Of a DNA stretch of 64,000 nt, positions 1-9,609 are shown one piece after another. Each line of letters starts with the position of its first letter. The first letter of the stretch is position 1. Under the pieces are notes generated by a model. The model saw only the letters and a list, made by a program, of their open reading frames with translations. It did no database searches and had not been told where the DNA came from. The stretch covers positions 1 through 64,000 of the forward strand of contig JABCTC010000005.1 in assembly GCA_018238545.1 (NCBI GenBank), read 5' to 3'. This DNA comes from Candidatus Heimdallarchaeota archaeon. GTDB taxonomy: Archaea > Asgardarchaeota > Heimdallarchaeia > Heimdallarchaeales > Heimdallarchaeaceae. The position numbers and the translations under genes are program-made.

Positions 1-275
1 AAGTGTTCAAACACTTGCGAACCATAAATATGGCGAGTTTTCGCCAAGCACTACCCATATATCAGCACTTTCCTATATAAACTCGTAGAAAAATGGAAGA
101 AAATTGGAGAGGTATTAAACATCACCACCTCAACATGTAATGATCGACAGCTTAGAAACTTCTGGTAAGTTTGAATAAGATTTTAATCAGCTGTTGCTTA
201 CGGTTGGATTTATTTTTGAAAATCATGTGATGCGTTACTTTATTAACGGATTTATCTCAAATCTAGTAGTAACCA

Positions 276-950: not shown

Positions 951-3287
951 TTGTTAGATATGCAGATTTTTGAAAAAGAAAGTGTCACAATATTTTTTTA
1001 CTCTCATTCAAACATATTACTAATGCCTTATTCAAAAGAAACAATTGAGTTGTTAAGTGATTCACCTTTCAAACAGTTTGTCCTTATGGAGCTAGAAAGA
1101 GAGAGATTGTATCAATCATTCATAGAGATTGATGAATTAGATGAAATTAGTAAAATATGGCTAAGTTTTTCGAAAATATGTGCTCAATCACTCGCAGATG
1201 TTTCATCAATTGCAAACTTGCTTTATGACCGCTATATCGATGAATGGACTAGAGATAAAAAACAAATAGATACTGATGAAAAACGTAAAAAATCATTAAC
1301 TGTAAAAATTGAAGACTTGCAAGAATTTCAGATGGAATCAGCAATATTAATGATTATTTATGCGGAGATAGTAAATACAGGTATCTTTGATACGGTCCCT
1401 TCTGACGATTATTGCATAGCATTTATTGAGGGTCACCGTATTTTGAATCGTATATCACAAACCTACTTTGATTCATCACACCCAAGAGCTTCTAGTATTG
1501 AAGAGCTAATGTTAACAATTCAACTTTTAAATCAGAAGCAGCAGGTACTGAATCTTCTTGAAGAATCACCCTATTTCAAAGAGAAAATTACTACTTCCCA
1601 AGAAAAAGCTTCTTATGAACTAGCACAAGCAGAATTCGATGTTTCTTTTACTGCACAGTTTTTCCAAAAACTGCGAAACGATTGGTGGTGGAATGATTCT
1701 ATAGCATCATATTCTGTTTATGAAAGAAGTTTAGCACATCTACAGAATGCATTAAATATTTACAAAAAACTTCCTGAAGATCCTGAATTTATAGCAAAAC
1801 AAATTGAACAAAATCTTATGCTAACAAACCTTGTAATGAGGAATAGGGAATTCGTTGAACATTATCTTAGACTTAGTTTTGAGGCTTCAAAAAACGACAA
1901 TTTTATTGCAAGTGTTGAATATCTCAATTTGGTATTAGGTTTAGGTAACGAAGCTTTAGAAGCTATCTCAGCCAATATTCAACAAGAACCAACAAATCTT
2001 AAACTAAAAGAGAGGATAATCAAGGAAGAGACCTTTCATACTTTTCTGCAAGGCATATCACTTCTAGCAGCTAAGACATCCCAATTGAATTTTATGGTTA
2101 CCACAGCTAAGAAAGAAGAGTTACAAGAAATCATAAAACAAATTGAGGAAATTGTTAATAGTCCGGATCTCAACATCAACAAAAATTACGTGAGCAGTTT
2201 ACCTTTTGTATATCTAAACTATGTTCAAGAATTTAAAATTGCATTACTTGAAAGTACATCCTATGAAGAAGCAATGAAAAGAGCTGAGCAAAATTTCACA
2301 CGCTTCTTTGAAAGATTAGAATTTGCCACCAGTGATTTAGCAGCTCAGTTAACTAAATTAGATAAGAAGGGTAAAAAGATTAAACAAGAAACAATTTCTC
2401 AAATGATAGAGAATATTCAGAATATAAAACTGGCTACTTACTTTTTGCCAAAAAGTGAAGATAAACTGTATATTGTAAAAGATATTGAATGTCTAGAATT
2501 CATTGCAAACTCAATCCAGTTAGAACAATTTTTGAGGGATAAGGAAACAAATGAAGTTCTTGACTTAATTTATCATGCGAAAGCACATTATTATTCAACA
2601 AAAGCTTTAGAAATAACTCAATTAAGCAGTTTTACAAGAATAGATAGCGAATGGGTTGAAAAGCGATATAGCCAAACATTTATTCAAGGTCAGGATATCG
2701 AGTTACGTCTGTTTGAACTAGCTAGACAGTATCTTTTTCTAAATACAGTAATTGATGAGATTGCTAATGGGTATAAGGTTGCAAATACTAAAGATGAGAC
2801 AATTTCAGAAAATTATCAAACAATTATACAACATGCTTTCAATCAATTTGCTGTTTTTGATGCGATAAATATACGTATTGCTGACGATTGCAATGAATTA
2901 TTAAAACACAGGCAATTATTTAACATAGAATCTTCTGACATCAATTGGAAAGCTATAGAGGTAAAAAAACAGTTAACTGACACTTTAATAGATTTTCTTG
3001 AAGCTACAAAGAACGCTATTCTTGGTTATGGTGCCAGTAACAACAAAGATACATACAAAGCTGCCTCATATTTTAATGATGCATCAAAATTCGCGAAAAA
3101 CGCTAACGAGACAATGCAACCAATATCACATTATGATGAAACATTTGCACAGTTGGCAAAAACCGCCTATGAATATAGTATTTTACTTAAGGAATTGGAT
3201 AGAAAGGCTAGAGCTAATGAAAAATTACAGAACCTTCCAATAGATCAGATATTCAACACTCTGAAACAGCTTACTTTCCTCTCTTGA
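951..3287 (+). CDS. Large hypothetical all-alpha-helical (solenoid-like) protein
   Basis: 778-aa open frame with host-like codon use and amphipathic helices; no recognisable catalytic motif; start may be 960 or 1023. Confidence 0.75.
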   Translation: MLDMQIFEKESVTIFFYSHSNILLMPYSKETIELLSDSPFKQFVLMELERERLYQSFIEIDELDEISKIWLSFSKICAQSLADVSSIANLLYDRYIDEWTRDKKQIDTDEKRKKSLTVKIEDLQEFQMESAILMIIYAEIVNTGIFDTVPSDDYCIAFIEGHRILNRISQTYFDSSHPRASSIEELMLTIQLLNQKQQVLNLLEESPYFKEKITTSQEKASYELAQAEFDVSFTAQFFQKLRNDWWWNDSIASYSVYERSLAHLQNALNIYKKLPEDPEFIAKQIEQNLMLTNLVMRNREFVEHYLRLSFEASKNDNFIASVEYLNLVLGLGNEALEAISANIQQEPTNLKLKERIIKEETFHTFLQGISLLAAKTSQLNFMVTTAKKEELQEIIKQIEEIVNSPDLNINKNYVSSLPFVYLNYVQEFKIALLESTSYEEAMKRAEQNFTRFFERLEFATSDLAAQLTKLDKKGKKIKQETISQMIENIQNIKLATYFLPKSEDKLYIVKDIECLEFIANSIQLEQFLRDKETNEVLDLIYHAKAHYYSTKALEITQLSSFTRIDSEWVEKRYSQTFIQGQDIELRLFELARQYLFLNTVIDEIANGYKVANTKDETISENYQTIIQHAFNQFAVFDAINIRIADDCNELLKHRQLFNIESSDINWKAIEVKKQLTDTLIDFLEATKNAILGYGASNNKDTYKAASYFNDASKFAKNANETMQPISHYDETFAQLAKTAYEYSILLKELDRKARANEKLQNLPIDQIFNTLKQLTFLS

Positions 3288-3351: not shown

Positions 3352-4230
3352 ATGTTTAACTCTCACAAGATGAGTAATCTGCCGATATCTGATGATACAA
3401 TTACTATGTTCAATCAAGCTTATGATGTTATAGATAAAATTAGAGGTGAACCAAATAGTGAGCTTGATCAGTATTCTGTAACAAGAGAAACAAGTCTAAA
3501 GCGTGCATTACTAGTAAACCCTGAAGATTATGATAAGAAGAGAATAGTAATGTTGGGGGATATGGACCTTGTTTCGTTGGGGATAGGAATATTTAGTAAG
3601 CCTAGAGATCTTGCCGTACTTGATTTAGACAAAAGAGTTTCAGAAATTGCCTTAAATATGAAATTTAATCAAAAAATCCGTTCTATTCGATTTGTAAATT
3701 TAGATATAAGAATTCGGATGATTGCTATCTTGAGAAATCAATTTGACTATATTTTCATTGAACCACCTTTGACAAAGGAAGGGCTGGAAGTAGGGCTTTC
3801 AAGGGCTTTGCAATGCGCAAAAAAAGAAGAACCCTCAAAAATTTTCCTTTCTTTTGACGCACCTAACAAAGAAGAACTTGTAGAGAAATACACAGAAAAA
3901 ATGAATTTAACAATTGAAAGTGTAAAGAAATCTTTCAATGAATATATGTTTAATACACCGTTAGGGAAAAAAACTTCCGATTTATTCATAATAAAAGTAA
4001 ATACAAACTCCAAAGAATCTGTCTCAGAACACTACTTCGGACCTTTGTACTTCCGAGAGAGTACGCAAGTTCCTCACCCTTATGAATGCAGTTGTGGAAA
4101 AATCTACAATGTTGGAAAAAGTGGGGAATATAGTTCACTAGAAGATTTAAAGAACAAAGGATGCCCGACATGTGGTCATTCAGAAGATTTTCGGTATGCA
4201 TCAAGCATAATGCTAGATGAAACTCAATAG
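3352..4230 (+). CDS. bpsA: Branched-chain polyamine synthase BpsA-like (DUF43) protein with C-terminal zinc ribbon
   Basis: RGEP..ELDQ..VT.ET...R, LGDMDLVSL, LAVLDLDKR and FDYIFIEPP match BpsA motifs; C-terminal CSC...CPTC. Confidence 0.75.
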   Translation: MFNSHKMSNLPISDDTITMFNQAYDVIDKIRGEPNSELDQYSVTRETSLKRALLVNPEDYDKKRIVMLGDMDLVSLGIGIFSKPRDLAVLDLDKRVSEIALNMKFNQKIRSIRFVNLDIRIRMIAILRNQFDYIFIEPPLTKEGLEVGLSRALQCAKKEEPSKIFLSFDAPNKEELVEKYTEKMNLTIESVKKSFNEYMFNTPLGKKTSDLFIIKVNTNSKESVSEHYFGPLYFRESTQVPHPYECSCGKIYNVGKSGEYSSLEDLKNKGCPTCGHSEDFRYASSIMLDETQ

Positions 4231-4255
4231 AAGTATTAAGATAATATGTGATATC

Positions 4256-4612
4256 ATGCCAGAACCATCAAAGAGAAAGACAATTTGCGCAATTTGCGAG
4301 AAAGACATCATCCTTTCAAGTGATATATTACTCAATGGGTGTCCAAACTGTGGATCTTTCAAGTTCAAAACTTTCAAAGAAGGAAGTGTAAAATTTCAAG
4401 ATGAGAAGGAATTAGATATAATAGTTGAAAAGGAAGTAGACAACACAGATATTCAAGAAGGTTTGGAATCAATTCGGTTAACGAGTGAAGGGATTTTTGA
4501 GGTTGATATAGAGAAACTTCTAACAGAATCAGGAGGGGAAAAACCGATTATCAGTAGGGACAAGGATGGTTCTTATTTCATCAAATTCTCCACAAAAGAA
4601 GAAGAAAATTGA
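4256..4612 (+). CDS. oapC: OapC/ArvC (DUF2072) zinc-ribbon protein
   Basis: CAIC...LLNGCPNCGSFKF and C-terminal ESIRL...G.FE.DI..L...I....DGSY.I; ATG 4256 preferred over 4217. Confidence 0.8.
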   Translation: MPEPSKRKTICAICEKDIILSSDILLNGCPNCGSFKFKTFKEGSVKFQDEKELDIIVEKEVDNTDIQEGLESIRLTSEGIFEVDIEKLLTESGGEKPIISRDKDGSYFIKFSTKEEEN

Positions 4613-4682
4613 AAAATTAAAACTTCTCACTTTTCACAAAATTTTAAATGTCATTAATTAAAGAGAGGAAGAGGTATTCTTC

Positions 4683-5546
4683 TTGGCAATGAAAGAACAA
4701 CTAGCAAAAGAGCAAAGAATCGCAAGTGGAGTTAAAGAAATACTCGAATTTAGAGGATTTAAGATTACTACAATAAATGAAGATGATGAATTTTTAGACG
4801 TTTATGCTGAAAAAATCGGACAAGATGATGAGAAAAAAACAGCATTGGCAAGATTTCCAAAAAATCCACAGGTTGGAGTAAAAACTATTAGAATTCTCGG
4901 GAAACTTCAAGCTGAAGAGGAATTAGATGAAGCATTACTAATTGCTGAAGCCCCGTTAACTCATTACGCAAAAAAAGAATCTGTAAAACTTGGAATAGAG
5001 ATTATCAGTAGTTCAAACCCATTGTTCAATATTTTTGAGCATGAGCTAGTCCCTTATCACACCAAATTATCCAATAAAGAAATCCGTTTATTCCTAATAA
5101 ATTATCAAATCGCAAAACATCAAATCCCAAAAATTTCTGAGTCAGATCCCGCTGTAAAAGCAATTCAAGCAAAACCAGGTGATGTTCTGAGAATTGTCAG
5201 AAATCCCATATTAGGGGAACAAGGAGCTTACTATAGAGTTGTTATAAAATCGGCTTCCAGGCTTCGTTTTACAGAAACATCTTCAAAGAAAAAGAAAACA
5301 GCAGCAAAGAAGACATCGACCAAAAAAGTAACTAAAAAGACTGAAGCAATAGCTGAAGTAAAGCCAGATGGAAAGAAAACAGCTGAAAAGAAGAAAGCAA
5401 CCAAAACTGAAACAAAAGCTAAAGTAAAACCAGATGGAAAGAAAACAGCTGAAAAGAAGAAAGCAACTAAAAAAGTAACTAAAAAGACTGAAACAAAAGC
5501 TAAAACAAAGCCAGCTGAAAAGAAAGCATCGGCTAAAAAGAAATAA
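4683..5546 (+). CDS. rpoH: RNA polymerase subunit Rpo5/Rpb5 with eukaryote-type N-terminal domain and Lys-rich C-terminal tail
   Basis: C-domain FNIFEHELVPYH...QIPKISESDPAVKAIQAKPGDVLRIVR...YYRVV; N-domain RGF...FPKNPQVGVKTIR resembles eukaryotic Rpb5; TTG start after GAGGT. Confidence 0.85.
   Translation: MAMKEQLAKEQRIASGVKEILEFRGFKITTINEDDEFLDVYAEKIGQDDEKKTALARFPKNPQVGVKTIRILGKLQAEEELDEALLIAEAPLTHYAKKESVKLGIEIISSSNPLFNIFEHELVPYHTKLSNKEIRLFLINYQIAKHQIPKISESDPAVKAIQAKPGDVLRIVRNPILGEQGAYYRVVIKSASRLRFTETSSKKKKTAAKKTSTKKVTKKTEAIAEVKPDGKKTAEKKKATKTETKAKVKPDGKKTAEKKKATKKVTKKTETKAKTKPAEKKASAKKK
5322..5492 (+). repeat. Intragenic direct repeats in the rpoH tail (46 bp at 5356-5401 and 5422-5467; 24 bp at 5322-5345 and 5469-5492)
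   Basis: aagtaaa(g/a)ccagatggaaagaaaacagctgaaaagaagaaagcaac occurs twice, 66 bp apart; aaaaaagtaactaaaaagactgaa occurs twice. Confidence 0.9.
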
Positions 5547-5560
5547 TTTAGGGGTTAATC

Positions 5561-6508
5561 ATGATTACATTCCTTTCAGGAGGAACTGGAACCCCAAAGT
5601 TAATTCAAGGCTTTAGAACTATTTTAAGTGACGAAAATCTATCTGTGATAGTAAATACTGCAGATGATATATGGCTCTCGGGAATCTATATCTCACCAGA
5701 TGTGGATACGATACTCTACTTGTTCAGTGATTTGTTAGATAAAAACAAATTTTGGGGTATAGAAAACGACACATTCAACACTTTGAAGATGTTGCACTTA
5801 CTTGGTTTTCCTTCTTGGTTCAACTTAGGTGATCAAGACCTAGCAATTAATCTTTTTAGAACCCGGATGATACAAAAAGGTGCCTCTCAAGAAAATATTG
5901 TGAAAACTCTTTCAAATCTTCTAAATATTAAATCAACAATTATTCCTTGTACAAATAATCACATAGAGACTCGCATTATCACAGAGAAGAAAGGTGATAT
6001 TCATTTTCAAGAATTCTGGGTTAAATATAAAGCAAAAGTAAACATAAAACAAGTTTACATAAAAAATTTAGAAAGTGCAGAGATTCCGGAATCAGTTAGA
6101 AGTACAATCGAAAAATCTGAATTAATTATAATTGGTCCAAGTAATCCAGTAACAAGCATTGGACCAATAATTCAGATAAGGGAGATTGCAGAATTATTGA
6201 AAGAACATAAAGATAAAACAATCGCTATAAGTCCCCTGATTGGCAATAAACCTGTTAGTGGTCCCACTGAAATGCTAATGAAAGCTGAAGGATTGGAATC
6301 TACTCCAATGGGAATTGCAGAAATCTACAAAGATTATTGTTCATGTTTAATAATTGACAACAAAGATTCAGATATGATTAATCAGATACAAAACAAAACT
6401 GGATTAAAAGTTCTTTCTGAAGAAATTTTGTTTAAAAACACTCAAGATGCGTCTAGACTAGCTTACTCTATTTTGAATTGGAGAGGTCATCATGACAAAT
6501 ACGTTTAA
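5561..6508 (+). CDS. cofD: 2-phospho-L-lactate transferase (F420 biosynthesis)
   Basis: LSGGTGTPKL, VNTADD, ISPDVDT, WFNLGDQD, HFQEFWV, IGPSNPVTSIGPI, PVSGP. Confidence 0.95.
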   Translation: MITFLSGGTGTPKLIQGFRTILSDENLSVIVNTADDIWLSGIYISPDVDTILYLFSDLLDKNKFWGIENDTFNTLKMLHLLGFPSWFNLGDQDLAINLFRTRMIQKGASQENIVKTLSNLLNIKSTIIPCTNNHIETRIITEKKGDIHFQEFWVKYKAKVNIKQVYIKNLESAEIPESVRSTIEKSELIIIGPSNPVTSIGPIIQIREIAELLKEHKDKTIAISPLIGNKPVSGPTEMLMKAEGLESTPMGIAEIYKDYCSCLIIDNKDSDMINQIQNKTGLKVLSEEILFKNTQDASRLAYSILNWRGHHDKYV

Positions 6509-7889: not shown

Positions 7890-9034
7890 TGAAAGAAAAA
7901 ATCGAAAGGATTCAAAACGTTTTACGTAAACAAAAAGTTGATGGATGGGGTGTTTTCTGTCATCATTCTTATGACATACATCTCAAATATCTACTCGAAA
8001 ATTGGTTTTCTGCACCCACGTTAGTTCTAATTACTAAAGAAGGAAAACCAAAAGTGATTGCCTCTAGGATGGAAGCTATGATGATAAATTCAGACATCTA
8101 TGACGTTATTGAATACAAAAAAGGTTCTGAGTTACAAGAATTGCTAAAAAAGCAATTCAATTCAATTCCAAAGGGATCAAAGATAGCACTAAACTTTGTT
8201 GAAGAGGATGAAGTTTTCAAACAGATGAATTATGATATTCTAACCAGTGGTTCATTTAAAGCTTTAACATCCTTAAATAAGGAACTTGAATACGTGTCAG
8301 CAAAAGATATTATTTTTGATATAAGAGCAGTTAAAACAAATAAAGAGATTGAAAACCATCAAGAAGCAGCAAGATTGGCTGAAGAACTTATGGAAGAAGT
8401 TATTGAGCCAAGTATTAAACCAGGTATGAGGGAAAAGGAACTTAATGCGCTTATAGAATACGAATGCAATAAAAGGGGCGGTGTTGCTTTTGAAGCAATT
8501 GTTGCTTCAGGTTCAAATGCTGCAATTCCTCATCATAAAGCAGGAGAAAAGAAGATAGAAGAAAATAACGTTTTGCTTATAGACTATGGTGTATCATATA
8601 ATCTTGCAAATTCAGACATAACACACACCTACTGGATAGGTAAAAAACCACCAGATAACATATTGCGTGCATATGAGGCAGTCGATAAAGCGAAAGAAGC
8701 AGCTTTTAATAAAATAAAAGCAGGAGTTTTATCTTCAGATGTTGAAGACGTAGTACGAGCTAAGTTTGAAGAATTTGGATATGATCACGAAAAACTCTTC
8801 ATTCATTCTACAGGACATTCATTAGGTCTTGAAACGCATGACATAGGGATAGGAATAGCTAAAGCTACACCTGATAGACCAAGCAAACAACTTCTAGAAA
8901 ACTCCATTATAACAGTAGAACCAGGTTTATACTTCCAAGGAGAGTTTGGAATAAGATTAGAAGATGATATAGTTGTAAGAAAGGATGGAATTACCCGTTT
9001 ATCATTTACCCCATCAGAAATGAAATGCCTTTGA
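7889..9034 (+). CDS. pepP: Xaa-Pro aminopeptidase (M24 family)
   Basis: AIVASG.NAAIPHH, LIDYG, SDITHT, HSTGHSLGLETHD, TVEPGLY, GIRLEDD. Confidence 0.92.
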   Translation: MKEKIERIQNVLRKQKVDGWGVFCHHSYDIHLKYLLENWFSAPTLVLITKEGKPKVIASRMEAMMINSDIYDVIEYKKGSELQELLKKQFNSIPKGSKIALNFVEEDEVFKQMNYDILTSGSFKALTSLNKELEYVSAKDIIFDIRAVKTNKEIENHQEAARLAEELMEEVIEPSIKPGMREKELNALIEYECNKRGGVAFEAIVASGSNAAIPHHKAGEKKIEENNVLLIDYGVSYNLANSDITHTYWIGKKPPDNILRAYEAVDKAKEAAFNKIKAGVLSSDVEDVVRAKFEEFGYDHEKLFIHSTGHSLGLETHDIGIGIAKATPDRPSKQLLENSIITVEPGLYFQGEFGIRLEDDIVVRKDGITRLSFTPSEMKCL

Positions 9035-9063
9035 TTTCATCCTCTACTTTCTTTTTACCTTAT

Positions 9064-9609
9064 TTAGTTTATTGAAGTCTCGCAAATCTCACAAGTAGAA
9101 TATCCATGAGGTACTTCTGAACCACAGTTTTTGCAAAAAATGCGATCCTTCACTTGAGTCATTATTGGTACTTCATCTGCTATATCAGAAATTTCTATTT
9201 CGCCTTTTGCAGCTTTCCAAAGTTTTGGACTTATAATACGACCAAGAAATGAACCAAAGAGGTTATTGCAAAGAAATAATATTCCGATCAAAACGTAAAC
9301 GAATAAGGAGAGGAAATAGTTCTCTGAGGTTTCTGATAGCCCGATTCCTTTAACTCCGAAAATCGTAAGAATTGACAACAAAGTTGCACCCAATATAGTT
9401 GCAATAATCAAACCTTCTGTTTTAAAGGCAAAAAAACCGACAATTATTCCAGCGGATAAACTAGTAATAATCAAAATAATATATCGATCCCATTGATCAA
9501 ATGTTTCTATACTAGTGACAACAATATAAGAAAGGTAGGTCATTCCTGCACCTAGAGCGAGAGCTAAGAGGTCAAAACCTAATCTTTGCAGTTCTTTATT
9601 TAATCTCAC
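9064..9609 (-). CDS. Four-TM membrane protein with C-terminal zinc ribbon
   Basis: Four hydrophobic segments; FCKNCG...TCEICE. Confidence 0.75.
   Translation of the reverse strand: MRLNKELQRLGFDLLALALGAGMTYLSYIVVTSIETFDQWDRYIILIITSLSAGIIVGFFAFKTEGLIIATILGATLLSILTIFGVKGIGLSETSENYFLSLFVYVLIGILFLCNNLFGSFLGRIISPKLWKAAKGEIEISDIADEVPIMTQVKDRIFCKNCGSEVPHGYSTCEICETSIN

What the first reader, a model, noticed from the sequence alone, without database searches (positions are those of the whole stretch)
4683..5546. Eukaryote-length Rpb5 with a histone H1-like tail, outside the rpo operon
Seen: about 110 aa precede the RpoH core and include RGF and FPKNPQVGVKTIR...EEELDEALLI...LT..AK. After the core come about 90 aa of K/A/T-rich repeats, partly from recent 46- and 24-bp duplications. 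No rpoB/rpoA genes are adjacent. Established: typical archaeal Rpo5 is only ~75-85 aa, and the N-terminal jaw domain (FPEEPKVGIKTIK-type motif) is a feature of eukaryotic Rpb5. Inference: this is a jaw-containing Rpb5 with a basic tail that may bind DNA, possibly a second paralogue giving an alternative RNAP form.
Basis: partly seen in the sequence, partly recalled or inferred. Interest (0 to 1): 0.7.

Follow-up and report, generated by a model that had tools for sequence, protein, structure and literature searches.

The report
Archaeal Rpo5 with jaw and lysine tail
This Heimdall-group (Asgard) archaeon makes its only RNA polymerase subunit H/Rpo5 in the long two-domain form that papers call eukaryote-only, with a dead-nuclease "jaw" domain, and adds a floppy lysine-rich tail, so this part of our own polymerases probably already existed in archaea.

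Summary
The ORF is real: 4683-5546 on the + strand, 287 aa. It has three parts.

- **Jaw (aa 1-112).** An inactive restriction-endonuclease fold. Sequence, profile and fold comparisons all show it is homologous to the N-terminal jaw of eukaryotic Rpb5.
- **Core (aa 115-187).** A canonical Rpb5_C/RpoH domain.
- **Tail (aa 191-287).** Predicted disordered, 38% lysine, net charge +29, and carrying a recent 66-bp tandem duplication.

It is the genome's only rpoH, so it is not a second paralogue. It lies in a gene neighbourhood conserved across its family, away from rpoB and rpoA.

The jaw-bearing form occurs in about half of 369 Asgard genomes with a match, and its gene tree follows taxonomy. The lysine tail is confined to one genus: it is present in all 23 genomes, with different lengths and repeat units. 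Sister genera carry acidic tails or none.

The tail resembles histone H1 in composition only. The closest functional analogue is the lysine-rich, dsDNA-binding C-terminus of Sulfolobus Rpo13. DNA binding by the tail is inferred, not tested.

The papers I could search say archaea lack the Rpb5 jaw. I found no report of an archaeal one. This scan had already noted the same architecture on at least 11 other genomes.

The parts
4642..4649 (+). TATA-like box TTTTAAAT about 40 nt upstream of the start codon; GAGGT (4671-4675) is a possible Shine-Dalgarno site 7 nt before the TTG
   Evidence: Read directly from the sequence. This is inference only: no transcript data, and no archaeal promoter tool was run.
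4683..5546 (+). rpoH/rpo5 gene, 287 aa including the stop codon; start is TTG at 4683 or ATG at 4689
   Evidence: ORF list. A 285-aa database protein 100% identical over 99% of the query would fit a start at the 4689 ATG. Homologues begin at the position of 4683. It is the only Rpb5_C match in the genome.
4683..5018 (+). N-terminal jaw domain (aa 1-112): inactive PD-(D/E)xK restriction-endonuclease fold, homologous to the eukaryotic Rpb5 N-domain
   Evidence: The AF2 model shows alpha-beta-beta-beta-alpha-beta-alpha-beta with pLDDT 77-94. VIA-align gives Z 13.8 with 180 residues aligned, model 4..188 against human RPB5 4..210. The N-domain alone hits a true eukaryotic Rpb5 at E 8.5e-6 among 1.84 billion proteins. 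An Asgard-only profile aligns end to end with Arabidopsis NRPB5A at E 2.2e-37. Mrr_cat matches at E 1e-3, below threshold. By eye, from the alignment and my recollection of the Mrr motif, D39 is kept but the (E/Q)xK position reads A-R-F.
5025..5243 (+). Rpb5_C / RpoH assembly domain (aa 115-187)
   Evidence: PF01191 scores 76.1 bits against a cut-off of 23.5 and 78.3 bits in the genome scan. It superposes on archaeal Rpo5 chains at Z 11.4, rmsd 2.4 over 77 residues.
5253..5543 (+). Lysine-rich, intrinsically disordered C-terminal tail (aa 191-287), preceded by the conserved SRLR(F/L) junction
   Evidence: 38% K, net +29, pI 10.5. AF2 pLDDT is about 40-46 with no secondary structure from aa 194 onward. 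The frame is open while the other two + frames carry 5 and 13 stops. Basic tails occur in all 23 genomes of the genus.
5340..5472 (+). 66-bp tandem duplication (22 aa, ...TETKAKVKPDGKKTAEKKKATK...) inside the tail
   Evidence: TRF: period 66, 2.0 copies, 92% matches, no indels. An exact 38-nt repeat sits at 5364 and 5430.

Best explanation
This is the single, essential rpoH/rpo5 gene of a Heimdallarchaeaceae genome. It encodes a three-part RNA polymerase subunit.

1. **C-domain (aa 115-187).** This is the universal archaeal/eukaryotic assembly domain that docks the subunit on the largest RNAP subunit. Family membership is shown; the docking role is inferred from the family.
2. **N-domain (aa 1-112).** This is a catalytically dead restriction-endonuclease fold, homologous to the jaw of eukaryotic Rpb5 (shown). 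[quoted passage not shown] The loop that contacts DNA in eukaryotes (TPSA) is conserved here as T93-H94-Y-A-K-K (inferred).
3. **Tail (97 aa).** This is a disordered polycation that grows and shrinks by tandem repeat duplication. It most likely gives the enzyme extra, sequence-independent affinity for DNA or nascent RNA, as the lysine-rich C-terminus of Sulfolobus Rpo13 does at the same corner of the enzyme (inferred, untested).

The jaw is old and vertically inherited across many Asgard families. The basic tail is a genus-level addition.
For: **Single copy.** There is one PF01191 match in the 91.8%-complete genome. No rpoH lies at rpoB.

**Jaw homology.**
- phmmer against human RPB5 aligns residues 65-207 to query 47-185 at E 3e-18, including FPKNPQVGVKTIR opposite FPEEPKVGIKTIK.
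- The N-domain alone finds a bona fide eukaryotic Rpb5 (Rpb5_N E 1e-39) at E 8.5e-6.
- An Asgard-only profile matches Arabidopsis NRPB5A over 1-205 at 131.7 bits, above the archaeal short Rpo5 chains at 117 bits.
- The top 36 Foldseek PDB hits are all full-length Rpb5 or its ASFV (viral) homologue, best E 1.3e-13.
- VIA-align gives Z 13.8.
- T93 is invariant across Asgard plus eukaryote sequences and aligns with the T of TPSA. The DNA-contact role of TPSA is from PMC6690254.

**Vertical inheritance.** The BpsA_C-like / OapC-like / rpoH / cofD order is conserved in 5 genera of the family. The gene tree groups the window's class (support 82/90) and every family sampled more than once as one clade.

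**Spread.** The N-domain query hits 135 of 399 phylum genomes. The profile query gives full-length matches in about 200 of 369.

**Tail.**
- It is predicted disordered.
- It is basic in 23 of 23 genomes of the genus, with net charge +8 to +54 and differing repeat units.
- Only 9 of 3,482 ORFs in the genome carry such tracts. Three of the others sit on proteins with DNA-associated domains: a giant TopoVI-B with HhH repeats, an HhH_5 protein and a PCI-domain protein.
- Lysine codons in the tail are 43% AAG, against 5% in the rest of the gene (Fisher p 0.002) and 27% genome-wide.
- No Rpo13 is found in the genome.
- The lysine-rich C-terminus of Rpo13 binds dsDNA, and Rpo13 sits where the Rpb5 jaw sits in eukaryotes (PMC3479171).
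Against: - Pfam RNA_pol_Rpb5_N does not reach its cut-off (13.7 against 27 bits; no hit at E <= 0.1).
- The Asgard jaw lacks the insertion of about 13 aa that eukaryotes have after beta-1.
- No experiment or multimer model places the jaw on the polymerase.
- Sister genera carry acidic tails (net -6 to -16) or none. The tail's charge is therefore not a constant requirement, and its function could be something other than DNA binding.
- No proteomic evidence shows that the tail is kept in the mature protein.
- The tree leaves the eukaryotic branch (animals only, length 2.24) unresolved on the Asgard backbone. Descent of the eukaryotic jaw from an Asgard one is likely but not shown, and its direction is not shown either.
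Confidence: 0.72

Rival explanations
1. Convergent fusion. An unrelated Mrr/NucS-type nuclease domain was fused to RpoH in Asgard archaea independently of eukaryotes, so the likeness to the Rpb5 jaw is only a shared fold.
For: Pfam scores the N-domain better as Mrr_cat or NA-iREase1 than as Rpb5_N. The N-domain also superposes well on EndoMS/NucS, at Z 11.6 and rmsd 2.6 over 100 residues.
Against: Used alone, the N-domain retrieves a eukaryotic Rpb5, while none of the hits I scanned (Pfam run on 9 of 16) was a full-length Mrr-type nuclease. The Asgard-only profile aligns without a break through jaw, linker and core of plant Rpb5. Domain order, junction and motifs are shared: R24, the FP..P.VG[IV]K motif and T93..AK. 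Both lineages lack the catalytic (E/Q)xK.
Confidence: 0.06
2. The tail is a neutral by-product. Slippage-prone A-rich repeats at the 3' end are tolerated because the C-terminus is solvent-exposed, and they have no function.
For: Length (29-160 aa) and repeat unit differ between close relatives, and there is a 92%-identical duplication here. Sister genera have acidic tails or none. The DNA is 54% A.
Against: All 23 genomes of the genus keep an open, strongly basic tail (30-41% K in the complete ones), although the alternative frames are full of stops. C-terminal ends such as ...AKKK or ...SKKSAK recur within subgroups. AAG is enriched among lysine codons. Such tracts are rare in the proteome.
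Confidence: 0.2
3. One reading: this is a second Rpb5 paralogue that forms an alternative RNA polymerase alongside a canonical short RpoH at the rpo operon.
For: The gene lies outside any rpo cluster. Tandem pairs of long-form rpoH do exist in another Asgard family, f31.
Against: There is only one Rpb5_C match in the genome. rpoB is preceded by an XPB-like helicase, not by rpoH. Each of the 29 other genomes of the family, like this one, shows exactly one match, and the locus is syntenic in all 28 relatives' loci examined.
Confidence: 0.03
4. The jaw-bearing form came into Asgard archaea by transfer from eukaryotes or giant viruses, rather than being ancestral.
For: Giant-virus and ASFV Rpb5 homologues exist and match the fold. 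The tree does not resolve where eukaryotes attach.
Against: The gene tree inside Asgard follows taxonomy across more than 15 families, with deep divergences of 30-40% identity. The Asgard jaw is the simpler form, lacking the eukaryotic insertion. Earlier scan notes report the form in Bathyarchaeia too (not tested here).
Confidence: 0.05

Closest known systems
Eukaryotic Rpb5 / RPABC1 (POLR2E; yeast ABC27; PDB 1dzf, 7vba_E, 8uhd_E, 7eu0_E), shared by Pol I, II and III
   Same: Two-domain architecture, with a dead PD-(D/E)xK jaw followed by the assembly domain. Same order and junction. Shared motifs: RGY/F, FP..P.VG[IV]KT[IM][KR], T..AK and HELVP.H. Full-length fold match at Z 13.8.
   Different: About 29% identity. 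Pfam's Rpb5_N model does not reach its threshold. The eukaryotic insertion of about 13 aa after beta-1 is absent. TPSA reads THYA. There is a 97-aa lysine-rich tail that eukaryotic Rpb5 lacks. The host is an archaeon with a single RNAP.
Canonical archaeal Rpo5/RpoH (75-85 aa; PDB 8cro_H, 4qiw_H, 7ok0_H, 2waq_H)
   Same: The C-domain is an ordinary member: 43-45% identity to Thermococcales Rpo5 and Z about 11. It is single-copy.
   Different: Canonical RpoH has no N-domain and no tail, and usually heads the rpoH-rpoB-rpoA operon (PMC10833476). Papers state that archaeal RpoH lacks the N-domain (PMC3906176; PMC6690254; PMC3479171).
Sulfolobus Rpo13 (a functional analogue, not a homologue)
   Same: Rpo13 occupies the place of the Rpb5 jaw next to Rpo5. 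Its disordered lysine-rich C-terminus (11 K in 22 residues) binds dsDNA non-specifically with Kd about 2 uM (PMC3479171). This is the same kind of polycationic appendage at the same corner of the enzyme.
   Different: Rpo13 is a separate small helical subunit. No Rpo13 is detectable in this genome. Here the basic tract is four times longer and is fused to Rpo5 itself.
Mrr / NucS(EndoMS) / NA-iREase1 restriction-endonuclease-fold domains
   Same: The same alpha-beta-beta-beta-alpha-beta core. Other Asgard long forms pass the Mrr_cat and NA-iREase1 cut-offs. EndoMS matches at Z 11.6. This is the likely evolutionary source of the jaw.
   Different: The catalytic (E/Q)xK is replaced, here by A-R-F (read by eye). 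The domain is always fused to Rpb5_C. Direct sequence similarity is to Rpb5 rather than to nucleases.
Histone H1 C-terminal domain / chlamydial HC2 (PF07382)
   Same: A lysine-rich, disordered, repeat-built polycation. Some homologues' tails carry a precomputed PF07382 hit.
   Different: This protein has no linker-histone globular domain and no HC2 hit. It is T-rich rather than A/P-rich and has no [ST]PxK motifs.

Membership tests
Rpo5/RpoH/Rpb5 (PF01191 assembly domain) | Match to RNA_pol_Rpb5_C above Pfam's gathering score | tested here: met
   76.1 bits against a cut-off of 23.5, profile positions 1-73 of 73; 78.3 bits in the genome scan.
Rpo5/RpoH/Rpb5 (PF01191 assembly domain) | Fold of the C-domain superposes on solved Rpo5/Rpb5 | tested here: met
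   9bct_H: Z 11.4, rmsd 2.4, 77 of 77 residues. 8cro_H: Z 11.1.
Rpo5/RpoH/Rpb5 (PF01191 assembly domain) | Physically a subunit of the RNA polymerase | not testable with these tools
   Needs purification or a structure. Being the genome's only homologue makes it very likely.
Eukaryote-type two-domain Rpb5 (PF03871 + PF01191) | Match to RNA_pol_Rpb5_N above Pfam's gathering score | tested here: not met
   No hit at E <= 0.1 in hmmscan. The genome-wide best hit is this ORF, but at 13.7 bits against a cut-off of 27, profile positions 50-84.
Eukaryote-type two-domain Rpb5 (PF03871 + PF01191) | Significant sequence homology of the N-domain to eukaryotic Rpb5 N-domains | tested here: met
   aa 1-112 alone hit P0063 (Rpb5_N E 1e-39) at E 8.5e-6 in 1.84e9 proteins. 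The Asgard-only profile aligns with 7eu0_E over 1-205 at E 2.2e-37. Human RPB5 residues 65-207 align at E 3e-18.
Eukaryote-type two-domain Rpb5 (PF03871 + PF01191) | N-domain adopts the Rpb5 jaw (restriction-endonuclease-like) fold in the same arrangement | tested here: met
   AF2 pLDDT is 77-94 over aa 11-110. Foldseek's top 36 hits are all full-length Rpb5 or its ASFV homologue, with about 208 aligned columns. VIA-align gives Z 13.8 with 180 residues aligned. This rests on a predicted model, not a solved one.
Eukaryote-type two-domain Rpb5 (PF03871 + PF01191) | DNA-contacting TPSA loop of the jaw | tested here: inconclusive
   The position aligns and T93 is invariant, but the motif reads T-H-Y-A-K-K. 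DNA contact was not tested.
Eukaryote-type two-domain Rpb5 (PF03871 + PF01191) | Loss of the PD-(D/E)xK catalytic residues (non-enzymatic jaw) | tested here: met
   Read by eye from the alignment: D39 is retained, while the (E/Q)xK position is A-R-F here, V/A-R-I/L in other Asgard forms and V-F-F in the eukaryote. The positions rest on my recollection of the Mrr motif, not on a computed alignment to it. NA-iREase1, an 'inactive REase' family, is matched by relatives.
Histone H1 / linker histone | Globular winged-helix linker-histone domain | tested here: not met
   No such Pfam family at E <= 0.1. The tail is modelled as coil with pLDDT about 40.
Histone H1 / linker histone | K/A/P-rich tail with S/TPKK-type motifs | tested here: not met
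   K 38%, but T 18%, A 14% and P 3%. No [ST]PxK motif.
Rpo13 | Match to RNA_pol_Rpo13 (PF12136) | tested here: not met
   The genome's best hit is 13.1 bits against a cut-off of 25, in an unrelated 446-aa frame. Rpo13 is cited as an analogue only.

The most novel reading that the evidence does not exclude
The two-domain Rpb5 is an archaeal invention. An Mrr-like nuclease domain was inactivated and fused to Rpo5 before eukaryotes arose, so the eukaryotic polymerase's lower-jaw 'guard rail' was inherited from the Asgard-like host. In one Heimdall genus the subunit then gained a built-in polycationic DNA or chromatin tether that takes the role Rpo13 plays in Sulfolobus and is tuned by repeat expansion.
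Probability: 0.5. Interest if true: 0.75.

Novelty: new variant of a known kind. Interest (0 to 1): 0.62.

Why it matters
**What the literature says.** Reviews and structural papers treat the Rpb5 jaw as a eukaryote-only embellishment.
[quoted passage not shown] - A PD-(D/E)XK survey lists PF03871 as Eukaryota only (PMC3424549).
- A 2026 survey of archaeal RNAP small subunits still describes the N-domain as a feature of the eukaryotic subunit (PMC13257274).

**What changes.** A vertically inherited, jaw-bearing Rpo5 in roughly half of the Asgard genomes sampled adds a core transcription component to the list of eukaryotic signature features that predate eukaryotes. It offers an archaeal system for asking what the jaw does: downstream-DNA guidance, or factor docking. 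It also suggests that Pfam's Rpb5_N model is too narrow.

**The tail.** It is a natural experiment in tuning polymerase-DNA affinity through a fast-evolving disordered region.

Tried and rejected
- **Pfam Rpb5_N** fails both as an hmmscan of the protein and as a genome scan. Homology had to be shown by phmmer, a custom profile and fold comparison.
- **A second rpoH.** I searched the whole genome and the rpoB and rpoA loci and found none.
- **H1 or HC2 membership of the tail** is rejected.
- **Rpo13 in the genome** is absent.
- **Phylogeny to place eukaryotes.** The tree used 35 rows and 190 columns under LG+C20. Only animal Rpb5 sequences were at hand, because the best-120 list was all metazoan. 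Eukaryotes sit on a branch of length 2.24 joined to an unresolved backbone, so no sister group can be named.
- **Literature.** Eight searches and nine papers queried found no report of an archaeal Rpb5 jaw. Subscription journals and supplementary tables of the Asgard genome papers were not searchable, so prior mention cannot be excluded.
- **Not attempted.** The sigma-70 promoter scan, which is not applicable to archaea, and a multimer model with Rpo1, for which no tool was available.
- **Not checked.** Database entries P0048 and P0049 start at MFNIFDH and so lack the jaw. I did not check whether that is an annotation clip.
Full report
**What is there**

The window is contig C82 of a 3.63-Mb, 128-contig genome that is 91.8% complete. 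Close homologues are labelled Candidatus Heimdallarchaeota or Heimdallarchaeaceae. The ORF at 4683-5546 (+) encodes 287 aa. It starts with TTG at 4683 and has an in-frame ATG at 4689. Homologues begin at the position of the TTG, and a GAGGT lies 7 nt upstream. A 285-aa database protein 100% identical over 99% of the query would fit an ATG start. I leave the start codon open.

Pfam finds RNA_pol_Rpb5_C at aa 115-187 (E 1.8e-21). It also gives sub-threshold Mrr_cat and NA-iREase1 matches over aa 16-109. There is no RNA_pol_Rpb5_N hit at E <= 0.1.

**The N-terminal domain is a homologue of the eukaryotic Rpb5 jaw**

Four independent lines agree.

- **Pairwise sequence.** phmmer against PDB sequences aligns human RPB5 residues 65-207 with query 47-185 (E 3e-18). 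The alignment runs through FPKNPQVGVKTIR opposite FPEEPKVGIKTIK.
- **N-domain alone.** I searched aa 1-112 alone against 1.84 billion representative proteins and got 16 hits. They included other Asgard long Rpo5 proteins and one protein, P0063, at E 8.5e-6. Pfam confirms P0063 as a genuine eukaryotic Rpb5 (Rpb5_N E 1e-39). None of the nine hits I scanned with Pfam was a full-length Mrr-type nuclease.
- **Profile.** A profile built only from Asgard long forms (A3) aligns end to end with Arabidopsis NRPB5A (chain 1-205, 131.7 bits, E 2.2e-37). That scores above the short archaeal Rpo5 chains, at 117 bits.
- **Fold.** An AlphaFold2 model of aa 1-196 (mean pLDDT 79.5; 86-94 across most of the N-domain) shows alpha-beta-beta-beta-alpha-beta-alpha-beta. 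Foldseek's top 36 PDB hits are all full-length Rpb5 chains or the ASFV homologue, with about 208 aligned columns and best E 1.3e-13. VIA-align gives Z 13.8 with 180 residues aligned, model 4..188 against human 4..210.

The formal Pfam test fails: 13.7 bits against a cut-off of 27, although the genome-wide best hit is this ORF. I read this as a model trained only on eukaryotes.

The domain also resembles EndoMS/NucS (Z 11.6), and relatives pass the Mrr_cat and NA-iREase1 cut-offs. That fits the known assignment of the Rpb5 N-domain to the PD-(D/E)xK superfamily (PMC3424549). Reading the alignment by eye against my recollection of the Mrr motif, D39 survives but the (E/Q)xK position reads A-R-F. 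In the eukaryote it reads V-F-F. The domain therefore appears to be non-catalytic in both lineages.

Compared with eukaryotes, the Asgard jaw lacks an insertion of about 13 residues after the first strand. The eukaryotic DNA-contact loop TPSA (PMC6690254) aligns with T93-H94-Y-A-K-K. T93 is invariant across the Asgard and eukaryote rows.

**It is not a second paralogue**

The genome has one Rpb5_C match, which is this gene. rpoB is an unsplit 1,132-aa gene on contig C86. It is preceded by an XPB/ERCC3-like helicase and a SurE gene, not by rpoH. rpoA1 lies about 10 kb away on the same contig.

The local order BpsA_C-like / OapC-like zinc ribbon / rpoH / cofD recurs in 28 loci from five genera of the family. 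The detached position is old and stable.

**Distribution**

- With the N-domain as query, 135 of 399 genomes of the phylum match. The window's family scores 28 of 29. The largest family, f20, scores 0 of 135.
- With the A3 profile, 369 of 399 genomes match.
- All 150 listed matches span profile positions <=21 to >=190.
- By E-value (<= 1e-39) I count about 200 long-form genomes in roughly 20 families. This is my tally from the table, not inspected one by one.
- f20 and about ten smaller families match only at the level of the C-domain, 1e-19 to 1e-34.
- A maximum-likelihood tree (35 rows, 190 columns, LG+C20+F+G4) recovers every family sampled more than once as one clade, and recovers the window's class as one side of a branch (82/90). 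This points to vertical descent.
- Eukaryotes, represented by animals only because one search returned nothing else, sit on a very long branch joined to an unresolved backbone. The tree does not say which Asgard lineage, if any, is their sister.

**The tail**

Residues 191-287 are 38% K, 18% T, 14% A and 8% E. Net charge is +29, against 0 for aa 1-190, and pI is 10.5. There is no [ST]PxK motif. A full-length AF2 model gives pLDDT of about 40-46 and no secondary structure from aa 194 onward.

The DNA holds a 66-bp unit twice (5340-5472, 92% matches), plus exact 38-, 24- and 18-nt repeats.

- **Within the genus.** Every one of the 23 genomes has a basic tail, 29-160 aa long (some are cut by contig ends), with net charge +8 to +54. 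The repeat units differ: KTTTKPKP, KKTTPAK, PAAKPKEATKK and TPSKTAAKPKK.
- **Outside the genus.** Genus g3 has a basic-then-acidic tail (net -16). Genus g5 has a short acidic tail (net -6). My parsing script did not extract tails for g2 and g4. The neighbouring family f5 has none.
- **Reading frame.** The tail's frame is open, while the other two forward frames carry 5 and 13 stops.
- **Codon use.** Lysine codons are 43% AAG in the tail, 5% in the rest of the gene and 27% genome-wide. This is a weak hint of selection against long A-runs.
- **Rarity.** Only 9 of about 3,482 ORFs in the genome have comparable tracts. The longest others sit on a 4,234-aa TopoVI-B/HhH protein, an HhH_5 protein and a PCI-domain protein. 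In this organism, such tracts tend to sit on proteins that handle DNA.

From all this I infer that selection acts on charge and disorder rather than on sequence.

**How it most likely works**

*Shown:* a single-copy Rpo5 with a jaw homologous to that of Rpb5, plus a disordered polycationic tail.

*Inferred from family knowledge:*
- The C-domain anchors the subunit to the largest subunit (PMC6690254).
- RpoH and Rpb5 lie next to downstream DNA (PMC2847245 abstract).
- In Sulfolobus that space is filled by Rpo13, whose lysine-rich C-terminus binds dsDNA non-specifically (PMC3479171).

This genome has no detectable Rpo13. My best reading is that the jaw guides downstream DNA as in eukaryotes, and that the tail adds non-specific electrostatic affinity for DNA or nascent RNA. 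The acidic tails of sister genera warn that the appendage may serve another purpose, such as partner recruitment, solubility or condensate behaviour.

**Comparison with what is known, and novelty**

The gene is a full member of the Rpo5/Rpb5 family by its C-domain. By its N-domain it is a divergent relative of eukaryotic Rpb5 that fails Pfam's curated threshold. It is not a histone H1 relative.

In the searchable literature I found only statements that archaea lack this domain. Recent Asgard and RNAP papers do not mention it.

This scan had already recorded the same architecture on at least 11 other genomes. Those notes include Heimdall genomes with lysine tails, 'triple-jaw' forms and Bathyarchaeia. 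The lysine-tail and Asgard-wide parts I confirmed independently here. The 430-500-aa frames I saw in family f4 fit the triple-jaw notes. The Bathyarchaeia claim I did not test.

I rate this a new variant of a known kind. It is moderately to highly interesting for transcription and eukaryogenesis. The main open points are the function of the tail and the phylogenetic direction.

Noticed in passing
G000 contig C62:39355-52059 (locus L036), not in this window: A 4,234-aa ORF with a TopoVI-B transducer domain, many HhH/RAD51D_N-like repeats and a C-terminal (KPKA)n basic tail. Earlier scan notes on this genome already describe it as a giant Top6B.
   Followed up: partly
Asgard family f31, e.g. G352:C32:8016-8552 and 8624-9244; G358:C85:263-787 and 901-1488 (locus L059): Many genomes of this family carry two jaw-bearing rpoH genes in tandem. 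In the tree the two G358 copies pair with each other (83/53), which suggests recent duplication.
   Followed up: partly
Asgard family f4 (same order as the window), e.g. G045:C107:5242-5568, G046:C18:67009-67338: N-domain matches lie in open frames of 430-500 aa, sometimes two per genome. This fits the 'triple-jaw' Rpo5 of earlier scan notes.
   Followed up: no
window 3352-6508: The gene order BpsA_C-like protein (3352-4230), OapC-like zinc-ribbon protein (4217-4612, overlapping by 14 nt), rpoH, cofD (5561-6508) is conserved across all five genera of the family. Why rpoH travels with an origin-associated-protein homologue is unexplained.
   Followed up: partly
window 951-3287: A 778-aa ORF with no Pfam family above threshold.
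   Followed up: no
G000 contig C86 (locus L034): The rpo cluster is broken up. Unsplit rpoB (1,132 aa) follows an XPB/ERCC3-like helicase. Divergently oriented L30e and NusA-like KH genes lie beyond its 3' end, and rpoA1 is about 10 kb away.
   Followed up: partly
database proteins P0048, P0049 (179-182 aa): Heimdall RpoH entries that begin at MFNIFDH. They have the core and the lysine tail but no jaw. This may be start-codon mis-annotation, as an earlier scan note suggested.
   Followed up: no
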